From IMG/VR virus record IMGVR_UViG_3300011339_000063, positions 1 through 37,403 of that record: DNA of 37,403 nt; one strand, given 5' to 3'. Position numbers and translations under genes: made by a program. The notes below the pieces were generated by a model. That model ran no database searches. It saw only the letters and a program-made list of their open reading frames with translations, and was not told the DNA's origin. Below are positions 1 through 37,403 of the stretch, piece after piece (the first letter of the stretch is position 1; every line of letters starts with the position of its first letter). The stretch comes from a virus (lineage: Duplodnaviria; Caudoviricetes).

Positions 1-267
1 TGGGTCATTGATAATGTCCCTACCGTAAACCATGAACCAAACCATAGATGTTTTGTTCTTAAAATGTTGAAATTTACTCCAGTGCCTAACTTTCATATAA
101 CCCCCTTAAAATAAACATTCTTCATATTGTGTCATGTCTGGCACGACCTTTGCTTTAGGAATAACCTTTAACTTACAGTTAGGCCTGTTCTCAAGAAACC
201 ATAGTGCAGATGCCTTGATACTAAAGGCTCTTAGCGGTTTTCCGTCAAACTCGTCTAAAATGATAAA
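1..267. repeat. Terminal direct repeat / circular overlap, left copy
   Basis: 1-267 aligns without gaps to 37137-37403, with mismatches at 32, 84, 136, 148, 200, 226 and 258. The repeat cuts through two ORFs, which fits a circularised assembly with a unit genome of about 37,136 bp. Confidence 0.95.
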
Positions 268-2272: not shown

Positions 2273-2494
2273 ATGGCAGAATATGATAATACCAATACTT
2301 TTACATTGTTTTTAAATGATAAAGGTGATAACCCTAAGAGGCCAGATAGATCTGGGAATTTAAATATTAACGGTGTTGAATACAGAATGTCTGGCTGGAT
2401 TAGACAAAGTGCAAGAGGTGAATTTCTTTCTGGTACTGTACAGCTAAAAGAAGCTGCAAAGTCTGTAGAAAACAATGAGGATGTTCCTTTTTAG
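2273..2494 (+). CDS. Small putative single-stranded DNA-binding protein
   Basis: KRPD.SG...SGW...FLS core with an acidic C-terminal DVPF tail typical of SSBs; AAGGAG SD. Confidence 0.65.
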   Translation: MAEYDNTNTFTLFLNDKGDNPKRPDRSGNLNINGVEYRMSGWIRQSARGEFLSGTVQLKEAAKSVENNEDVPF

Positions 2495-2504
2495 GATCAT
2501 CCCC
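2469..2504 (-). terminator. Intrinsic terminator for the antisense pqqA unit (possibly bidirectional)
   Basis: Minus strand GGGGATG-A-TCCT-AAAA-AGGA-A-CATCCTC followed by ATTGTTTT; overlaps the stop of the SSB-like gene. Confidence 0.6.
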
Positions 2505-2546
2505 ATACACACTATACACAACATTACACTAAGTGTAACTTTTAGA

Positions 2547-2618
2547 TTACTTGTTCATAACGTACATAGTTACTTCAAAACCGAAACGCATTTCAGTAGC
2601 TGCTGGAGTTGTCCACAT
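2547..2618 (-). CDS. pqqA: Pyrroloquinoline quinone precursor peptide PqqA (23 aa)
   Basis: Translates to MWTTPAATEMRFGFEVTMYVMNK*, matching the PqqA pattern W-x-x-P...R-x-GFE-x-x-x-Y with the E-X3-Y core; AAGGA SD 8 nt upstream. Confidence 0.95.
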   Translation of the reverse strand: MWTTPAATEMRFGFEVTMYVMNK

Positions 2619-2661
2619 GGTTAGTATCCTTAAAGGTTTCTGGCTTATGCCATTAAGTGAG

Positions 2662-2690
2662 ATTATACACCCAGCAAGCTATCTGGAATA
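2662..2690 (-). promoter_or_regulatory. Putative pqqA promoter
   Basis: Perfect TATAAT on the minus strand at 2667-2662, about 44 nt upstream of the ATG; -35 is weak. Confidence 0.5.
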
Positions 2691-2714
2691 TCAGTAAAAC
2701 CATGAAAGAGGTCT

Positions 2715-2966
2715 ATGTTTAAGTTTGAGTTTAAAGAGTCAGTAAGAGCTGAATTAGCAACAACACCACACGCTAGACTATTTCATGCAATACTATTGCA
2801 GGCTATGAAAGATGCTATAGATGGTTATGGTACTGAACGTGAATCTGCTATTAGGTGGCTTAATGAACACGATAATGTTGTAAAAGACATATGCTTAATA
2901 TTATCTGGATATGATGAGCATTATATTCATGACATTATAGGAAAACGTAATAATGGACATTCATAG
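2715..2966 (+). CDS. Hypothetical protein (LF.AILLQAMKDA helical motif)
   Basis: 83-aa ORF with GAGG SD. Confidence 0.7.
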   Translation: MFKFEFKESVRAELATTPHARLFHAILLQAMKDAIDGYGTERESAIRWLNEHDNVVKDICLILSGYDEHYIHDIIGKRNNGHS

Positions 2967-3333: not shown

Positions 3334-3563
3334 TGAAGCCACTAGCATTTTTAGTAGAAGAATTTGACAGCACAGGACAGCTTGTGTGGTCTGGACTTAT
3401 GACTTCAGAACCAACGTCTTTAGAAATTTGTAAAGATATAAAAAACAAATTACATAATTGGACTATCACGCCATTGCTTCCAGACACAAAAAATATTATT
3501 AAAGTAAATAACATTAAAAAATACAACAGCAAATTATTAACGGAGGCTTACGGTGGCGACTAA
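3333..3563 (+). CDS. Hypothetical protein
   Basis: MKPLAFLVEEFD...; ATG overlaps the previous TAA (TAATG). Confidence 0.65.
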   Translation: MKPLAFLVEEFDSTGQLVWSGLMTSEPTSLEICKDIKNKLHNWTITPLLPDTKNIIKVNNIKKYNSKLLTEAYGGD

Positions 3564-4290
3564 ACCAAATTTATTTATAGCAACACCCATGTATGGAGGT
3601 TTATGTTATGGCACTTATTTAGAGTCTATGCTTAAACTGCAAGCATGGCTTAATGCTAAAGACATAGAAGCATACTTTTCATTTCTTTATAACGAAAGCC
3701 TTATCACTCGTGGTCGTAATACATTAGTAAATGACTTTTTAAAAGGCGATGCTACACACTTAATGTTTATTGATGCTGACATACAGTTTGAGGCAAAAGA
3801 TTTATTAAAGATGATTGATTCTGACGTAGAGATTATATGTGGTCTGTATCCTAAAAAAGAAATTAACTGGGGTGGTGTAGCTTATGCTATTGAAAAGAAA
3901 GTGCCACAGGATCAACTTAAATACTTTACAGGTGAGTATGTGGTAAATATGGTAGGTGATGTTAAGTCACAGTTAGTGCCATTAGATAAACCATTTGAGA
4001 TTAAACATGGCGGTACAGGCTTTATGTTAATTAAACGTGAGGTATTTGATAAACTCAAAGACAAGTGTCCATCGTATATACATAATATGAGTGATGTAAA
4101 CGACAACTCTGATTTAGGTGATAAGATCACAGAATACTTTACCACTAGCATTGATGAGCAAAATCATTTGTTAAGTGAGGATTATCATTTCTGTAAACTT
4201 GCTCGTGATAATGGTATTAAAGTACATGGTGCAGCTTGGACACAGTTAGTACATACAGGAACTTATCAATACAGTGGGAGGTTAGTATGA
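3553..4290 (+). CDS. Glycosyltransferase-like protein (GT-A fold)
   Basis: FIATPMYGG, SLITRGRN, HLMFIDAD (DxD), GTGFMLIKREVF and SEDYHFC motifs; GGAGG SD with GTG start. Confidence 0.8.
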   Translation: MATKPNLFIATPMYGGLCYGTYLESMLKLQAWLNAKDIEAYFSFLYNESLITRGRNTLVNDFLKGDATHLMFIDADIQFEAKDLLKMIDSDVEIICGLYPKKEINWGGVAYAIEKKVPQDQLKYFTGEYVVNMVGDVKSQLVPLDKPFEIKHGGTGFMLIKREVFDKLKDKCPSYIHNMSDVNDNSDLGDKITEYFTTSIDEQNHLLSEDYHFCKLARDNGIKVHGAAWTQLVHTGTYQYSGRLV

Positions 4291-4550: not shown

Positions 4551-4702
4551 TTGTTTATCAAGTTACTGGTCTATTTTTTAAAGGAAGAAAAAGATACATA
4601 AAAAGACGAGTGTCAGATAAAAATAAAAGATGGTATGATAAATTTTATAAACGTAGAGGACAAAATTACTGGTGGAAGGATGTAGCAGATGATAATTCCT
4701 AA
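4547..4702 (+). CDS. Small Arg/Lys- and aromatic-rich protein (51 aa), not in ORF track
   Basis: MIVYQVTGLFFKGRKRYIKRRVSDKNKRWYDKFYKRRGQNYWWKDVADDNS*; ATGA-coupled and fills the gap between its neighbours. Confidence 0.6.
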   Translation: MIVYQVTGLFFKGRKRYIKRRVSDKNKRWYDKFYKRRGQNYWWKDVADDNS

Positions 4703-5294
4703 TAACATGATTAGCCATGTAGGAAAGATATTTCAAGGTGAGTATGCTATACTTGGTGCATTAGAAAATCCATACATCATAGATATTGGTGCTAATGTAG
4801 GTGGGTTTGCAGTTTGGGCACATGAGTTTTTTAAGAATCCAAAAATAGATTGCTATGAGCCTATAAAAGAAAACTATAGTTTATTAAGGCAGAATACAGC
4901 AGGTACTGATATAGCCATTAAGAACTTTGCTATAGGTAAAGAAGATGGTGAGCGTCAAATGTATTATGGACTACATAACTGTGGTGAGGCTAGTCTGTAT
5001 AGTGGTGAAGAGCAGGCTAAGGAAGGTGAGATAGTTAAGGTAATGTCAGCCAAACATCTGCCAGAGTGTGACATCATGAAGATTGATACTGAAGGTGCAG
5101 AGATTGAGATACTGGAAAACTTAGTAAACTTTCCATCAATATTTTTGATAGAGTTTCATAGTGCAAATAACCGTAGACGTATAGATGAATTGCTACTTGA
5201 CTACACACTTTTAGAGTGTACAATGCGTGGTTATAATTATGGTGTATTAAAATACTTACGGACTAATTTATGTATACAAGAGCAGACAGCATAA
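4689..5294 (+). CDS. FkbM-family SAM-dependent methyltransferase
   Basis: IIDIGANVG, CYEP, KIDTEGAE and IEFH motifs. Confidence 0.9.
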   Translation: MIIPNNMISHVGKIFQGEYAILGALENPYIIDIGANVGGFAVWAHEFFKNPKIDCYEPIKENYSLLRQNTAGTDIAIKNFAIGKEDGERQMYYGLHNCGEASLYSGEEQAKEGEIVKVMSAKHLPECDIMKIDTEGAEIEILENLVNFPSIFLIEFHSANNRRRIDELLLDYTLLECTMRGYNYGVLKYLRTNLCIQEQTA

Positions 5295-18473: not shown

Positions 18474-18884
18474 TTATCTCTTTACTTTTAAATAGTTAAT
18501 TGCTGATTGTAATATTGAAATATTATCTTTTGCTTTTCCTAATAAAATATTACAAGCTGAACATAATAATCCACGAACTTTACCTGTAGTATGACAATGG
18601 TCAACAGCCAAACGGTGTCCTGAACCTTTTTCGCAATTTTCTACATTTTCGCCACATATTGCACAACAATTATTTTGTTTTAATAATAAATCATCATAAT
18701 CTTGCAATGTAATATTATATTTTTGTGCTAAATGAGCTTTTCTTGCTGATATTTTACCTTCATTAGATTGTTGCCATTTTTTAAAACACAATTTGCACAT
18801 TGACTGAATTCCTTGCTTACTTCTATTTTCTTTATAAAATTCAGTTTTTGGTTTTTCAATATTGCATTTAGTACATATTTTCAT
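18474..18884 (-). CDS. Free-standing endonuclease VII-family (His-Me finger) homing endonuclease
   Basis: CxxC...CxxC then YNIT..DY....Q...CAICG...LAVDHCH.TGKVRGLLC..CN; more AT-rich than its flanks. Confidence 0.9.
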   Translation of the reverse strand: MKICTKCNIEKPKTEFYKENRSKQGIQSMCKLCFKKWQQSNEGKISARKAHLAQKYNITLQDYDDLLLKQNNCCAICGENVENCEKGSGHRLAVDHCHTTGKVRGLLCSACNILLGKAKDNISILQSAINYLKVKR

Positions 18885-28074: not shown

Positions 28075-30125
28075 TATTGTCCTGTTTGAGCTTTGTTAAA
28101 CTTTTCTAATGTATCTATAACTGTTTTAGTTTGTGAGTTACGAGTCATCTCTGATTGATTAGTAGCGTCAGATTGAATTTTAAATGCTTGCATTTGTAAT
28201 TCTAATTGTTTACGAGCATTATCTAATTCCATTTGTTGCTTCTCTAATTGAAGTTTAGCCATTTCAGTTTGTGATTTAAGTTGAGCTTTTTCACGTTCAA
28301 CTTGGGCCAAGATTTCAGCTGCCCTAGTATTTGGGTCTGGTTTTTCTTGTGATGCTTGTTGTATAATTTGCTGTTCAACTTCTGGAGTAATTTCATTCAT
28401 AAACGCTGTAGCATCTTTGAACCCTGCCATATGTACAAACTTAGCCAATGTATCTCTGTATTGTTTTAATGAGATAAGAGGATTGCTTACACCATAAGCC
28501 TGTAAGATTTGCTCTTGTTTACCTAAAATCATTTGCATAGTAGCTAGTTGTTCTTGACGTGATCCAGTACCTAAGCCTACATTAATTGTAACGTTGTATT
28601 CTGTATCCCATTCACGAGGATCAAACGGTACAAATCTACCATTAATACGAAGTGTTCTTACTGTGTCTTGATACTTGCATAGTAATTGTAGAATGCCTTT
28701 AAATAATGACTTAACGCCTGTTTCTGCAAATATACGAGCAATAAGTTCTAACTTACCATAAGATGCATTTGACATTGCAGAAACTGCTGCGGCTGTAACA
28801 TTTTGCAATACATCTGGATTTAATCCTTGTTGAGCATCACTAACACCAGTACGCTTAGCTTGTATACCGTCTAAGTATTCTAGCATAGGGAATGATTGTG
28901 ATGCACTTGATTGTACTGTTAACGGTACAAGTGCACCTGCACTTTTAACACGAATTACACCGCCTGCTGTTGATGTCAGTAAGTCATCTAAATTTACTTG
29001 GCCTTCTACAGCTGCAATTCTAGAATTATTTGTTAAATATAAGTTATCTAGCATTTGACGAGTAACTGTAGACTTAATAAGTTGAATGTCTAAAGTACGA
29101 TCCGCTAATGATTGGCCATAGAATTTATGTGGAATTGGTATTGGACAGATTGAATGAAATGGTACATAGTCACACTCCATATCTTCTAAAATTTCATTAG
29201 ATGCATACACAATACGTCTAAGCTCTGCAATACCATCTTCATTATAATCAACTTTAATGTAGCATTCGTAAACTTCTACCACTTCCATAGATTGATCTTG
29301 TGAACCCATGCTGTTAGGTTGCTCACCACGAGAGTAACGAGCAATTCTATCTGGACTAAACTCTAAAGTATCGCCAGATCCTAAAGAATCTACAAGATCT
29401 TTGTCAAAACCCATAGCAACTAATTCAGAACGAGTAATCATTCTGCGGTGTGCTACAAATGGTGAGTCTTGAATTGTTTTAGCACGTTTAGATATTAAAA
29501 ACTCTTCTGGAGGAACATTCTCTACAACTATTTTTCCTCTGTTCTTTGTGCGTTTTAATGTAACGTTATTAGATTTGCTGAATGTTGTTTGGCCAGTAAG
29601 TTCATCTACTGTTGACTCTTCAATAATTTCTTGTGATATAAGTTCTATTTCTGGATCTTGCATAAGCATCATTAGCTCATCATCTGATAGGCCTTCATAC
29701 TTTTCTTTTGTAACATCTAGTGCATCATTCCAGTATGCTTTTACAACACCAGTCTTTTGTAGCAATGCATCTTTAAACCAATTATGAAGGATTAAGAATC
29801 CATCGTTATCTTTATAGAATACATGATTAACTAATTGTGTGGCTTGTTCAGCTTTTAACTCGTCACCATCTTTAGCTGGAGCAAATTCTACAACATTATC
29901 ACTAGAGGTAAAAACACGAATCAACTGAGGCAATGCACCATCCACCGCTTCTGCAACTTCACCTGTAACAATAGTTGATTTACCCTCAACTTCGTTACCG
30001 TATGGTTCACGCAAATAATATTCTAGTGCCTGTTGACGTTCATCTGTAGTATCTGTTTCTAGATAACCTAATGAGTCATCTATTTCAGATTCAATAATCG
30101 TCTTTAATTTGTTAATATCAATCAT
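28074..30125 (-). CDS. Portal protein (P22-like)
   Basis: 683 aa with a C-terminal Gln-rich coiled-coil barrel; follows TerL. Confidence 0.88.
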   Translation of the reverse strand: MIDINKLKTIIESEIDDSLGYLETDTTDERQQALEYYLREPYGNEVEGKSTIVTGEVAEAVDGALPQLIRVFTSSDNVVEFAPAKDGDELKAEQATQLVNHVFYKDNDGFLILHNWFKDALLQKTGVVKAYWNDALDVTKEKYEGLSDDELMMLMQDPEIELISQEIIEESTVDELTGQTTFSKSNNVTLKRTKNRGKIVVENVPPEEFLISKRAKTIQDSPFVAHRRMITRSELVAMGFDKDLVDSLGSGDTLEFSPDRIARYSRGEQPNSMGSQDQSMEVVEVYECYIKVDYNEDGIAELRRIVYASNEILEDMECDYVPFHSICPIPIPHKFYGQSLADRTLDIQLIKSTVTRQMLDNLYLTNNSRIAAVEGQVNLDDLLTSTAGGVIRVKSAGALVPLTVQSSASQSFPMLEYLDGIQAKRTGVSDAQQGLNPDVLQNVTAAAVSAMSNASYGKLELIARIFAETGVKSLFKGILQLLCKYQDTVRTLRINGRFVPFDPREWDTEYNVTINVGLGTGSRQEQLATMQMILGKQEQILQAYGVSNPLISLKQYRDTLAKFVHMAGFKDATAFMNEITPEVEQQIIQQASQEKPDPNTRAAEILAQVEREKAQLKSQTEMAKLQLEKQQMELDNARKQLELQMQAFKIQSDATNQSEMTRNSQTKTVIDTLEKFNKAQTGQ

Positions 30126-36843: not shown

Positions 36844-37232
36844 GCTATATCCTTTATAAAGGTTATCTTCTTATCTTCTATCTTCTCATATCCTATCTTT
36901 TCTTCTTCTCTCTTCTTCTCTCTAGCATACTCCGTATACTCACCGTATATAGAATTGGCTGAGTCGCTTTCAAACCAAGAGTTTAGAGTGATTAACATAT
37001 TCTGGACAAACTCTTTATCCTTATGCAATCTGAAGCATAGTTTTTTGAGATCTGGAAGTTCACCGTTCTTTTCAGAAGCCAAGCACCAAAGTTCAAAAAG
37101 TGTGGCCTTTTGATCTGAACTTAACTCGTGCCAGTCTGGGTCATTGATAATGTCCCTACCGTAAACCTTGAACCAAACCATAGATGTTTTGTTCTTAAAA
37201 TGTTGAAATTTACTCCAGTTCCTAACTTTCAT
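36840..37232 (-). CDS. Putative replication initiator (lambda O-like N-terminal helical domain)
   Basis: NW.KFQ...WFK.Y......W..L......L..LW.LAS motif and an REEK-type linker; upstream of the primase and helicase genes. Confidence 0.6.
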   Translation of the reverse strand: MKVRNWSKFQHFKNKTSMVWFKVYGRDIINDPDWHELSSDQKATLFELWCLASEKNGELPDLKKLCFRLHKDKEFVQNMLITLNSWFESDSANSIYGEYTEYAREKKREEEKIGYEKIEDKKITFIKDIA

Positions 37233-37403
37233 ATAACCCCCTTAAAATAAACATTCTTCATATTGTGTCATTTCTGGCACGACATTTGCTTTAGGAATAA
37301 CCTTTAACTTACAGTTAGGCCTGTTCTCAAGAAACAATAGTGCAGATGCCTTGATACTAAATGCTCTTAGCGGTTTTCCGTCAAACTCGTCTATAATGAT
37401 AAA
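37137..37403. repeat. Terminal direct repeat / circular overlap, right copy
   Basis: Matches 1-267 with 7 substitutions. Confidence 0.95.

What the first reader, a model, noticed from the sequence alone, without database searches (positions are those of the whole stretch)
2469..2690. Self-contained, antisense phage pqqA unit encoding a RiPP cofactor precursor
Seen: in a gap the ORF track leaves empty, the minus strand encodes MWTTPAATEMRFGFEVTMYVMNK with its own TATAAT (2667-2662), AAGGA SD and terminator (2504-2469). It is the only well-supported gene opposing the early arm. Known: PqqA supplies the Glu and Tyr of its E-X3-Y motif that PqqE/PqqD cross-link, so one peptide is consumed per PQQ. 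PQQ is the cofactor of MxaF/XoxF methanol dehydrogenases. No pqqB-E genes are visible here. Inference: the phage supplies only the stoichiometric, translation-dependent substrate to keep host methanol oxidation running during infection. This suggests a Methylophilaceae-like host (Methylopumilus/OM43). I recall pqqA being noted in metagenomic freshwater phages, so the gene may not be new, but I know of no functional test.
Basis: partly seen in the sequence, partly recalled or inferred. Interest (0 to 1): 0.9.

Follow-up and report, generated by a model that had tools for sequence, protein, structure and literature searches.

The report
Phage pqqA with host-type control box
This phage carries an intact 23-codon pqqA gene whose peptide is identical to the one that methanol-eating Methylophilaceae bacteria use up to make the cofactor PQQ, and it likely uses it to top up PQQ during infection; viral pqqA was reported in 2020, but the gene also sits unannotated in six cultured phages of these bacteria, so the idea can now be tested.

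Summary
Confirmed: 2618-2547 (-) is a real pqqA (TIGR02107 38.8 bits, cut-off 20), identical to the peptide of three Ca. Methylopumilus universalis copies. The phage has no pqqB-E or methanol dehydrogenase. Viral pqqA is in print (Coutinho 2020), and this scan found it before on other phage DNA. Added here: (1) it is a fixed gene of this lineage, not a passenger (78 of 78 and 70 of 70 informative neighbour-anchored loci; pN/pS 0.01 over codons 9-23); (2) it lies unannotated in six named cultured Methylophilaceae phages, among them P19250A, for which Coutinho stated absence; (3) the unit reaches to 2705: a 15-bp box found upstream of most host pqqA genes is the top-scoring site of the whole window, 38 nt before a TATAAT that lacks a -35. 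Stand-alone design copies the host's own scattered pqqA copies. Most likely the phage adds precursor for host PqqB-E to raise PQQ for methanol dehydrogenase. Transcription, PQQ gain and fitness gain are untested; RNA contigs were uninformative, and PQQ is recycled, so 'keeps methanol oxidation running' is not self-evident. New member of a known kind; interest 0.5.

The parts
2547..2618 (-). pqqA coding sequence, 23 aa plus stop; core E15-x3-Y19
   Evidence: peptide identical to P19250A and to three Ca. M. universalis copies; pN/pS 0.097 among 58 distinct alleles of relatives
2627..2631 (-). Shine-Dalgarno-like AAGGA, 8 nt before the ATG
   Evidence: sequence; similar purine-rich tracts before the start in related loci
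2662..2667 (-). -10 hexamer TATAAT of the predicted pqqA promoter; no recognisable -35
   Evidence: conserved in relatives; not called by the two-hexamer scan
2691..2705 (-). 15-bp near-palindromic box shared with host pqqA promoters; predicted activator site, regulator unknown
   Evidence: host-only weight matrix ranks it first in the window, 18.5 bits against 10.7 for the next site; cross-validated specificity
2523..2539 (-). small 7-bp hairpin right after the stop codon, in a variable spacer
   Evidence: a hairpin of this type in 4 of 87 syntenic units, window included
2467..2506 (-). 3' hairpin with T-rich tail (terminator-like); one arm is formed by the last codons of the convergent ssb gene
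   Evidence: z -4.3; 60 of 65 distinct segments fold at -12 kcal/mol or better, T-tail on the pqqA strand in only 20 of 60
2273..2494 (+). flanking phage single-strand DNA binding protein gene, convergent with pqqA
   Evidence: phrog_18154, E 1.7e-12
2715..2966 (+). flanking 83-aa ORF of unknown function, divergent from pqqA; present in only part of the relatives
   Evidence: no family hit

Best explanation
The locus is an intact phage copy of the Methylophilaceae PQQ precursor gene pqqA with host-type promoter box, ribosome site and 3' hairpin, and it likely works as an extra, separately transcribed source of precursor that the host's PqqB-E enzymes would turn into PQQ for the host methanol dehydrogenase during infection. 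Shown: gene, peptide identity with host copies, fixation and purifying selection in the lineage, the box, absence of pqqB-E and of a dehydrogenase in the phage. Inferred: host RNA polymerase with a host activator bound at the box (centre about -42, where a -35 is missing) makes a monocistronic mRNA of about 190 nt against the recombination arm; PqqD/PqqE cross-link E15 and Y19; one peptide gives one PQQ; precursor dose limits PQQ, as the hosts' 3-12 pqqA copies per single pqqB-G set suggest; more holo-dehydrogenase gives more energy and formaldehyde for phage production.
For: HMM hits above cut-off. Same peptide in 68 of 122 host copies recovered with a pattern built on it and in all three copies of G001, which also holds pqqB, pqqE and a PQQ methanol/ethanol-family dehydrogenase. 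Present in 78 of 78 informative ssb-anchored loci (80 fetched, the best of 517) and 70 of 70 informative hydrolase-anchored loci (72 examined), 38 of 38 informative replication-gene-anchored loci (67 fetched, 29 too short) and 14 of 14 close exonuclease relatives, but 0 of 9 distant ones; the sets share contigs. pN/pS 0.011 for codons 9-23; E15 and Y19 invariant in 58 of 58 alleles. Six named cultured phages of at least four described groups carry it (groups from PMC10580990), whereas no pelagiphage with a related terminase appears among the hits: the gene follows the host, not the phage lineage. Box upstream of 53-62 of 64 held-out host pqqA genes against 2-4 of 361 other host genes, of pqqB in G001, and of 59 of 105 viral pqqA genes against 1 of 487 random windows. 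Multi-copy pqqA in Methylophilaceae: PMC4109929, Table 4 passages. Latent period of 17-20 h in MEP401/402 (PMC10580990 section 6) leaves time for cofactor supply to matter.
Against: No transcript of this unit was shown: all runs were contigs without strand, and the deep cover over the coding part came from contigs with non-phage flanks. The phage has no dehydrogenase, and the box is missing upstream of the host dehydrogenase gene in G001 and G002, so nothing ties the peptide to methanol oxidation except host physiology. PQQ is a recycled cofactor, and the host already has three or more copies. PMC9851590 (passages) says that raising pqq gene expression gave limited PQQ gains in engineered strains. 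The box is not universal: 27 of 87 syntenic units reach 10 bits (62 reach 6), MEP401 has none within 250 nt and MEP402 only a distant one. The T-tail of the hairpin is kept in only 20 of 60 relatives.
Confidence: 0.68

Rival explanations
1. The peptide is made and converted to PQQ, but the benefit is not methanol oxidation: PQQ would serve as a redox or radical scavenger, or supply another quinoprotein, in the infected cell.
For: The host box also stands before a rhodopsin, a cytochrome b561 and a beta-propeller gene in G001, and not before the methanol/ethanol-family dehydrogenase. G001 has a second PQQ-dehydrogenase-like gene below the family cut-off. Antioxidant chemistry of PQQ is recalled, from no call.
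Against: XoxF is the most transcribed gene of OM43 strain NB0046 (PMC5120137, abstract and passages), so it is the likely main PQQ sink; Baikal T4-like phages carry pqqA together with methanol dehydrogenase (PMC7678222).
Confidence: 0.17
2. The unit acts on host regulation rather than on cofactor supply: replicated copies of the box would titrate a host regulator, or the antisense transcript would tune the phage's own ssb/early-arm mRNA, the peptide being secondary.
For: The box is kept in unrelated phages (P19250A 20.4, Melnitz 19.1, MEP301 18.0, Venkman 14.7 bits). The unit is antisense to both neighbours in the window, MEP301 and Venkman, and its hairpin overlaps the ssb end.
Against: The strongest constraint is on the peptide (pN/pS 0.011); the box always sits at fixed spacing to a -10 in front of pqqA; in P19250A, MEP401 and MEP402 the gene is co-directional with a neighbour.
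Confidence: 0.08
3. pqqA is an attachment or recombination site remnant, a recent neutral pick-up, or host DNA misassembled into the contig.
For: Only 3-4 nucleotide differences from the closest host alleles over 72 nt.
Against: No tyrosine integrase in the genome; 0 tblastn hits of 75 window ORFs in 141 host pqqA loci; phage genes on both sides; same position in dozens of other contigs and in cultured phages; synonymous divergence with peptide conservation.
Confidence: 0.03

Closest known systems
Viral PqqA of Lake Baikal population VP_266 (Coutinho et al. 2020, PMC7678222; passages read)
   Same: Phage-borne pqqA, Methylophilaceae host inferred, proposed to raise PQQ and methanol oxidation, untested.
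   Different: That virus is T4-like and also encodes methanol dehydrogenase; this is a 37-kb phage with SU10-type capsid and portal genes, related to Venkman, with pqqA alone. The passages read describe no promoter, prevalence or selection, and state that P19250A encodes none of those genes, whereas it has an identical peptide gene at 28085-28153.
Stand-alone pqqA copies of Methylophilaceae (3-12 per genome; Beck et al. 2014 [author recalled], PMC4109929, passages)
   Same: Identical peptide, monocistronic layout with ribosome site and 3' hairpin, same upstream 15-bp box.
   Different: Host promoters mostly have the full box 60-61 nt before the -10 (93 of 128) plus a half-site 23 nt further on; this phage has one full box 38 nt before the -10. 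The phage hairpin borrows the ssb tail instead of the host's hairpin-plus-T-run (106 of 115 host copies).
Cyanophage psbA-type auxiliary metabolic genes (recalled, no call)
   Same: A host energy gene kept by unrelated phages of one host group, thought to replace a consumed or turned-over part.
   Different: PqqA is a sacrificed peptide precursor of a cofactor, not a protein subunit; expression and fitness data exist for psbA (recalled) and none were found for pqqA.

Membership tests
PqqA (TIGR02107 / PF08042) | Score above curated cut-offs | tested here: met
   38.8 bits vs 20; 40.3 vs 21.1
PqqA (TIGR02107 / PF08042) | Short peptide with Glu-x3-Tyr core near the C-terminus | tested here: met
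   23 aa, E15 and Y19; invariant in 58 of 58 alleles; Glu-16/Tyr-20 of the studied PqqA in PMC10906245 passages
PqqA (TIGR02107 / PF08042) | Conversion to PQQ by PqqB-E | not testable with these tools
   Inferred from identity with the three copies of a genome that holds pqqB and pqqE
Complete pqqABCDE cluster | pqqB, C, D, E beside pqqA | tested here: not met
   No pqqE in the genome; no tblastn hit of host PqqB/C/D/E or dehydrogenase in the window or in loci L001-L279
Phage auxiliary metabolic gene | Host-derived metabolic gene between viral genes, away from contig ends | tested here: met
   ssb and exonuclease on one side, cell-wall hydrolase on the other; genome with a 267-bp terminal overlap
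Phage auxiliary metabolic gene | Maintained by selection in the viral lineage | tested here: met
Phage auxiliary metabolic gene | Expressed during infection | tested here: inconclusive
   Only unstranded contigs; cover over the coding part came mostly from other pqqA copies
Phage auxiliary metabolic gene | Alters host flux or raises phage yield | not testable with these tools
   No experiment found in 10 paper searches
Consensus sigma-70 promoter | -10 and -35 hexamers 16-18 nt apart | tested here: not met
   -10 perfect, -35 position has 2-3 of 6 matches; not listed by the scan
Intrinsic terminator | G+C-rich hairpin followed by a U-tract | tested here: inconclusive
   Hairpin strong and conserved; tail 6 T of 8 in the window but kept in 20 of 60 relatives; scan did not call it
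Host pqqA promoter box (undescribed in the papers searched) | Match to a matrix trained on host pqqA upstream regions only | tested here: met
   Rank 1 in the window, 16.8-18.5 bits across four half-set matrices
Host pqqA promoter box (undescribed in the papers searched) | Bound by a host activator | not testable with these tools
   Regulator not identified

The most novel reading that the evidence does not exclude
pqqA is the signature auxiliary gene of Methylophilaceae phages, a psbA of methylotroph viruses that annotation missed because it has 23 codons: unrelated tailed phages have each kept it, many wired into an undescribed host pqq regulon through a 15-bp activator box moved to the promoter-proximal position, and phage-made precursor sets PQQ supply, and so methanol turnover, in infected lake and coastal methylotrophs.
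Probability: 0.4. Interest if true: 0.72.

Novelty: new member of a known kind. Interest (0 to 1): 0.5.

Why it matters
The gene itself is known from viruses. What matters is scope and testability: six cultured phages with cultured hosts carry it unnoticed, so a standing metagenomic guess (phages boost methanol oxidation through PQQ) can be tested in existing phage-host pairs. About 1500 IMG/VR stretches hold the motif (estimate), so the 23-codon gene with its Methylophilaceae-type sequence could also serve as a host marker for uncultured phages. The box points to an unidentified regulator of PQQ synthesis in Methylophilaceae. If true, it is a case of a virus supplying only the consumed peptide of a ribosomal-peptide cofactor pathway.

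Tried and rejected
RNA evidence: four RNA-labelled runs with small shares (0.05-0.07) and one of unknown kind were laid. All were contigs; no strand, start or level. Cover over 2546-2621 was very deep but its flanks were not this phage's; one flank in X3 and X4 is, by eye, the upstream sequence of host copy L408. Two relative-type contigs join the ssb end to pqqA at depth 7.7 and 16.7, which shows presence only. Not used as evidence, nor for habitat. Covariation of the hairpin: RNAalifold found only 3 pairs and 0 compensatory pairs on 35 segments, because the pairing register slips between alleles; conservation rests on single-sequence folds. The T-tail count used that wrong structure and was discarded. 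Rfam: 0 matches in the window and five loci. PHROGs has no match for the peptide. tRNA: none. Genome-wide box search in G001: the strict pattern gave 22 matches against 13 for the reversed control, 19 places, 10 of them inside ORFs, so the regulon list is only a lead. A methanol regulon that includes the dehydrogenase gene was rejected (no box within 250 nt). Fur was considered by recalled resemblance of the palindrome; no iron-uptake gene stood among the 9 intergenic sites, but this was not tested further. The two 'Acinetobacter phage MD-2021a' hits were set aside: the one opened is a bacterial pqqABCD(E) operon beside ppk. PMC11118758, PMC12397222 and PMC13188868 (passages): the last lists viral pqqA among phosphorus-related genes in reservoir sediment; the others do not describe phage pqqA in the passages found. 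No complex or structure prediction was run (23-aa peptide, textbook pair).

Full report
Observation. It scores above the curated cut-offs of both PqqA models (TIGR02107 38.8 bits; PF08042 40.3 bits) and has the E15-x3-Y19 core. AAGGA lies 8 nt before the start, TATAAT at 2667-2662, and a hairpin at 2506-2475 folds far better than shuffles (z -4.3). The consensus scan listed neither promoter nor terminator here: there is no -35, and the stem has a mismatch. No other minus-strand ORF tested in the early arm has a Pfam hit.

The genome. The window is a whole phage record (CheckV 100%) with a 267-bp terminal overlap bearing 7 mismatches, SU10-type capsid, portal and adaptor genes, no tyrosine integrase, no pqqE and no PQQ dehydrogenase. 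pqqA sits between a single-strand binding protein gene and an unknown ORF followed by a cell-wall hydrolase. Its terminase is closest to OM43 phage Venkman (72%) and a Manatee Spring genome (71%); pelagiphages follow at 47%. That supports a Methylophilaceae host without using pqqA.

Host side. A pattern built on the peptide hit about 1100 stretches of GTDB genomes (estimate); the 80 titles shown are mostly Methylophilaceae or unclassified proteobacterial bins. Of 122 distinct copies, 68 have the window's peptide (the pattern favours it). Five genomes held 3-5 matches each. In G001 (Ca. Methylopumilus universalis by the title of L307) all three copies are identical in peptide to the phage's and stand alone, away from pqqB-E. 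PMC4109929 (passages) reports 3-12 pqqA copies per single pqqB-G set. The stand-alone layout is therefore the host's own.

Phage side. Relatives were fetched by neighbouring genes, not by pqqA. It was present in 78 of 80 ssb-anchored loci and 70 of 72 hydrolase-anchored loci, the four others being cut short; in 38 of 67 replication-gene loci, the other 29 judged too short by my thresholds; in 14 of 16 close exonuclease relatives (2 short); and in 0 of 9 distant ones at 33-36% identity. The sets overlap and are related, so these are not independent events. Among 58 distinct alleles pN/pS is 0.097, 0.011 for codons 9-23 and 0.41 for codons 2-8. A motif scan of IMG/VR gave 120 loci, all with an intact short ORF, and an estimate of about 1500 stretches; none of loci L001-L279 has pqqB-E or the dehydrogenase within its flanks.

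Cultured phages. tblastn of 50,697 phage records gave 12 hits: P19250A (identical), Venkman, MEP301, MEP401, MEP402, four Melnitz records, the Manatee Spring genome, and two Acinetobacter records of which the one opened is a bacterial operon. In the seven regions opened the gene is unannotated or covered by an ORF called on the other strand; all seven peptides pass TIGR02107. These are the five OM43 phages named in PMC10580990 plus P19250A; I could not list the collection by host, so other isolates lacking the gene may exist, and a 23-aa query can miss divergent pqqA. The string pqq does not occur in the main text of the MEP301, MEP401/402 and Venkman papers and occurs once, as a medium component, in the Melnitz paper; nor in the supplements searched (10 of 19 Venkman files were not searched). 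The P19250A paper was not in the listing and was not seen.

The control box. A 15-bp matrix trained on host pqqA upstream regions alone (119 sites in 128 regions) ranks 2691-2705 (-) first among all positions of the window, 18.5 bits against 10.7. Matrices from half the set find the box in 53-62 of 64 held-out host pqqA regions and in 2-4 of 361 other host upstream regions (held-out copies are homologous, so not fully independent). It is upstream of 59 of 105 viral pqqA genes against 1 of 487 random windows, and of the P19250A, Melnitz, MEP301 and Venkman genes, but not close to those of MEP401/402. In hosts it mostly starts 60-61 nt before the -10, with a half-site 23 nt on; in many phages, this one included, a full box starts 37-38 nt before the -10. 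That is the position of an activator that stands in for a missing -35 (established promoter geometry; binding is inferred). In G001 the box also precedes pqqB, a rhodopsin and a cytochrome b561, but not the methanol/ethanol-family dehydrogenase. The regulator is unknown, and my searches found no description of the box.

The 3' end. One arm of the hairpin is the last codons of ssb, the other lies in the spacer. Sixty of 65 distinct segments fold at -12 kcal/mol or better; of the five that do not, one was cut by my slice and four have a separate hairpin with a T-run in front instead. A T-tail on the pqqA strand is kept in 20 of 60, so the hairpin may protect the mRNA end as much as terminate. 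Alignment folding gave no covariation support.

Mechanism. Most likely (0.68) the phage adds a host-regulated pqqA copy whose template multiplies with the phage genome, and host PqqB-E turn the peptide into PQQ for the methanol dehydrogenase, the most transcribed gene in an OM43 strain (PMC5120137). An inhibitory look-alike is excluded as far as the peptide equals the host's. The weak step is the benefit: PQQ is recycled, the host has its own copies, and nothing here measures expression or flux. Rivals: PQQ for redox protection or another quinoprotein (0.17), a regulatory role of box or antisense RNA (0.08), remnant or artefact (0.03).

Novelty. Coutinho et al. 2020 (PMC7678222, passages) reported pqqA in a Baikal T4-like phage with the same proposal, and PMC13188868 (passages) lists viral pqqA. 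This scan has reported phage pqqA on other genomes. So this is a new member of a known kind. What I did not find in ten searches of an open-access library is its fixation in a phage lineage, its presence in the cultured isolates, the shared box, or any functional test. Interest 0.5.

Noticed in passing
window 1-267 and 37137-37403: Terminal overlap of 267 bp with 7 substitutions (all to A or T in the right-hand copy); the record is a circularly permuted whole genome of about 37.1 kb that the database classes as linear.
   Followed up: partly
KX815270.1 28085-28153; MW452941.1 3316-3384; MT375522.1 9977-10045; OP830906.1 41902-41970; OP830907.1 43050-43118; MZ577097.1 near 76140-76205: Unannotated pqqA genes in cultured Methylophilaceae phages; in Melnitz and MW202481.1 a hypothetical ORF is called on the opposite strand instead.
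   Followed up: yes
L424, L425, L463, L469, L472 (G001): The pqqA box also precedes pqqB, a rhodopsin gene, a cytochrome b561, a beta-propeller gene (TIGR03866 below cut-off) and a molybdopterin oxidoreductase: a possible undescribed energy/PQQ regulon.
   Followed up: partly
L001, L035, L197, L198, just after the pqqA stop: A shared structured element (hairpin followed by a terminator-like hairpin) occurs behind pqqA in siphovirus P19250A and in relatives of the window's phage, which suggests exchange of the whole unit between phage lineages; no Rfam match.
   Followed up: partly
L171, L177, L209, between pqqA and ssb: An insertion of about 85 nt with a long imperfect inverted repeat; no Rfam match.
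   Followed up: partly
L160 (IMGVR_UViG_3300020047_004060): Two pqqA units with different promoters and alleles about 2.3 kb apart, each beside an ssb end.
   Followed up: no
syntenic relatives, e.g. L147, L157, L179 versus window, L036, L158: Two promoter types alternate at the same locus: box close to the -10 without a -35, or a farther half-box with a -35-like hexamer.
   Followed up: partly
window 3553-4290 and 4689-5294 (+): A 245-aa ORF (phrog_1574, weak Anp1 hit; 66% DNA match to a gene annotated dpG-synthase-like in MW202753.1) and an FkbM-family methyltransferase in the same arm.
   Followed up: no
window 18474-18884 (-): Endonuclease VII-domain ORF inserted among tail genes.
   Followed up: no
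CAKLQF020000010.1 (L568): A record filed as 'Acinetobacter phage MD-2021a' is a bacterial contig with ppk and a pqq operon.
   Followed up: yes
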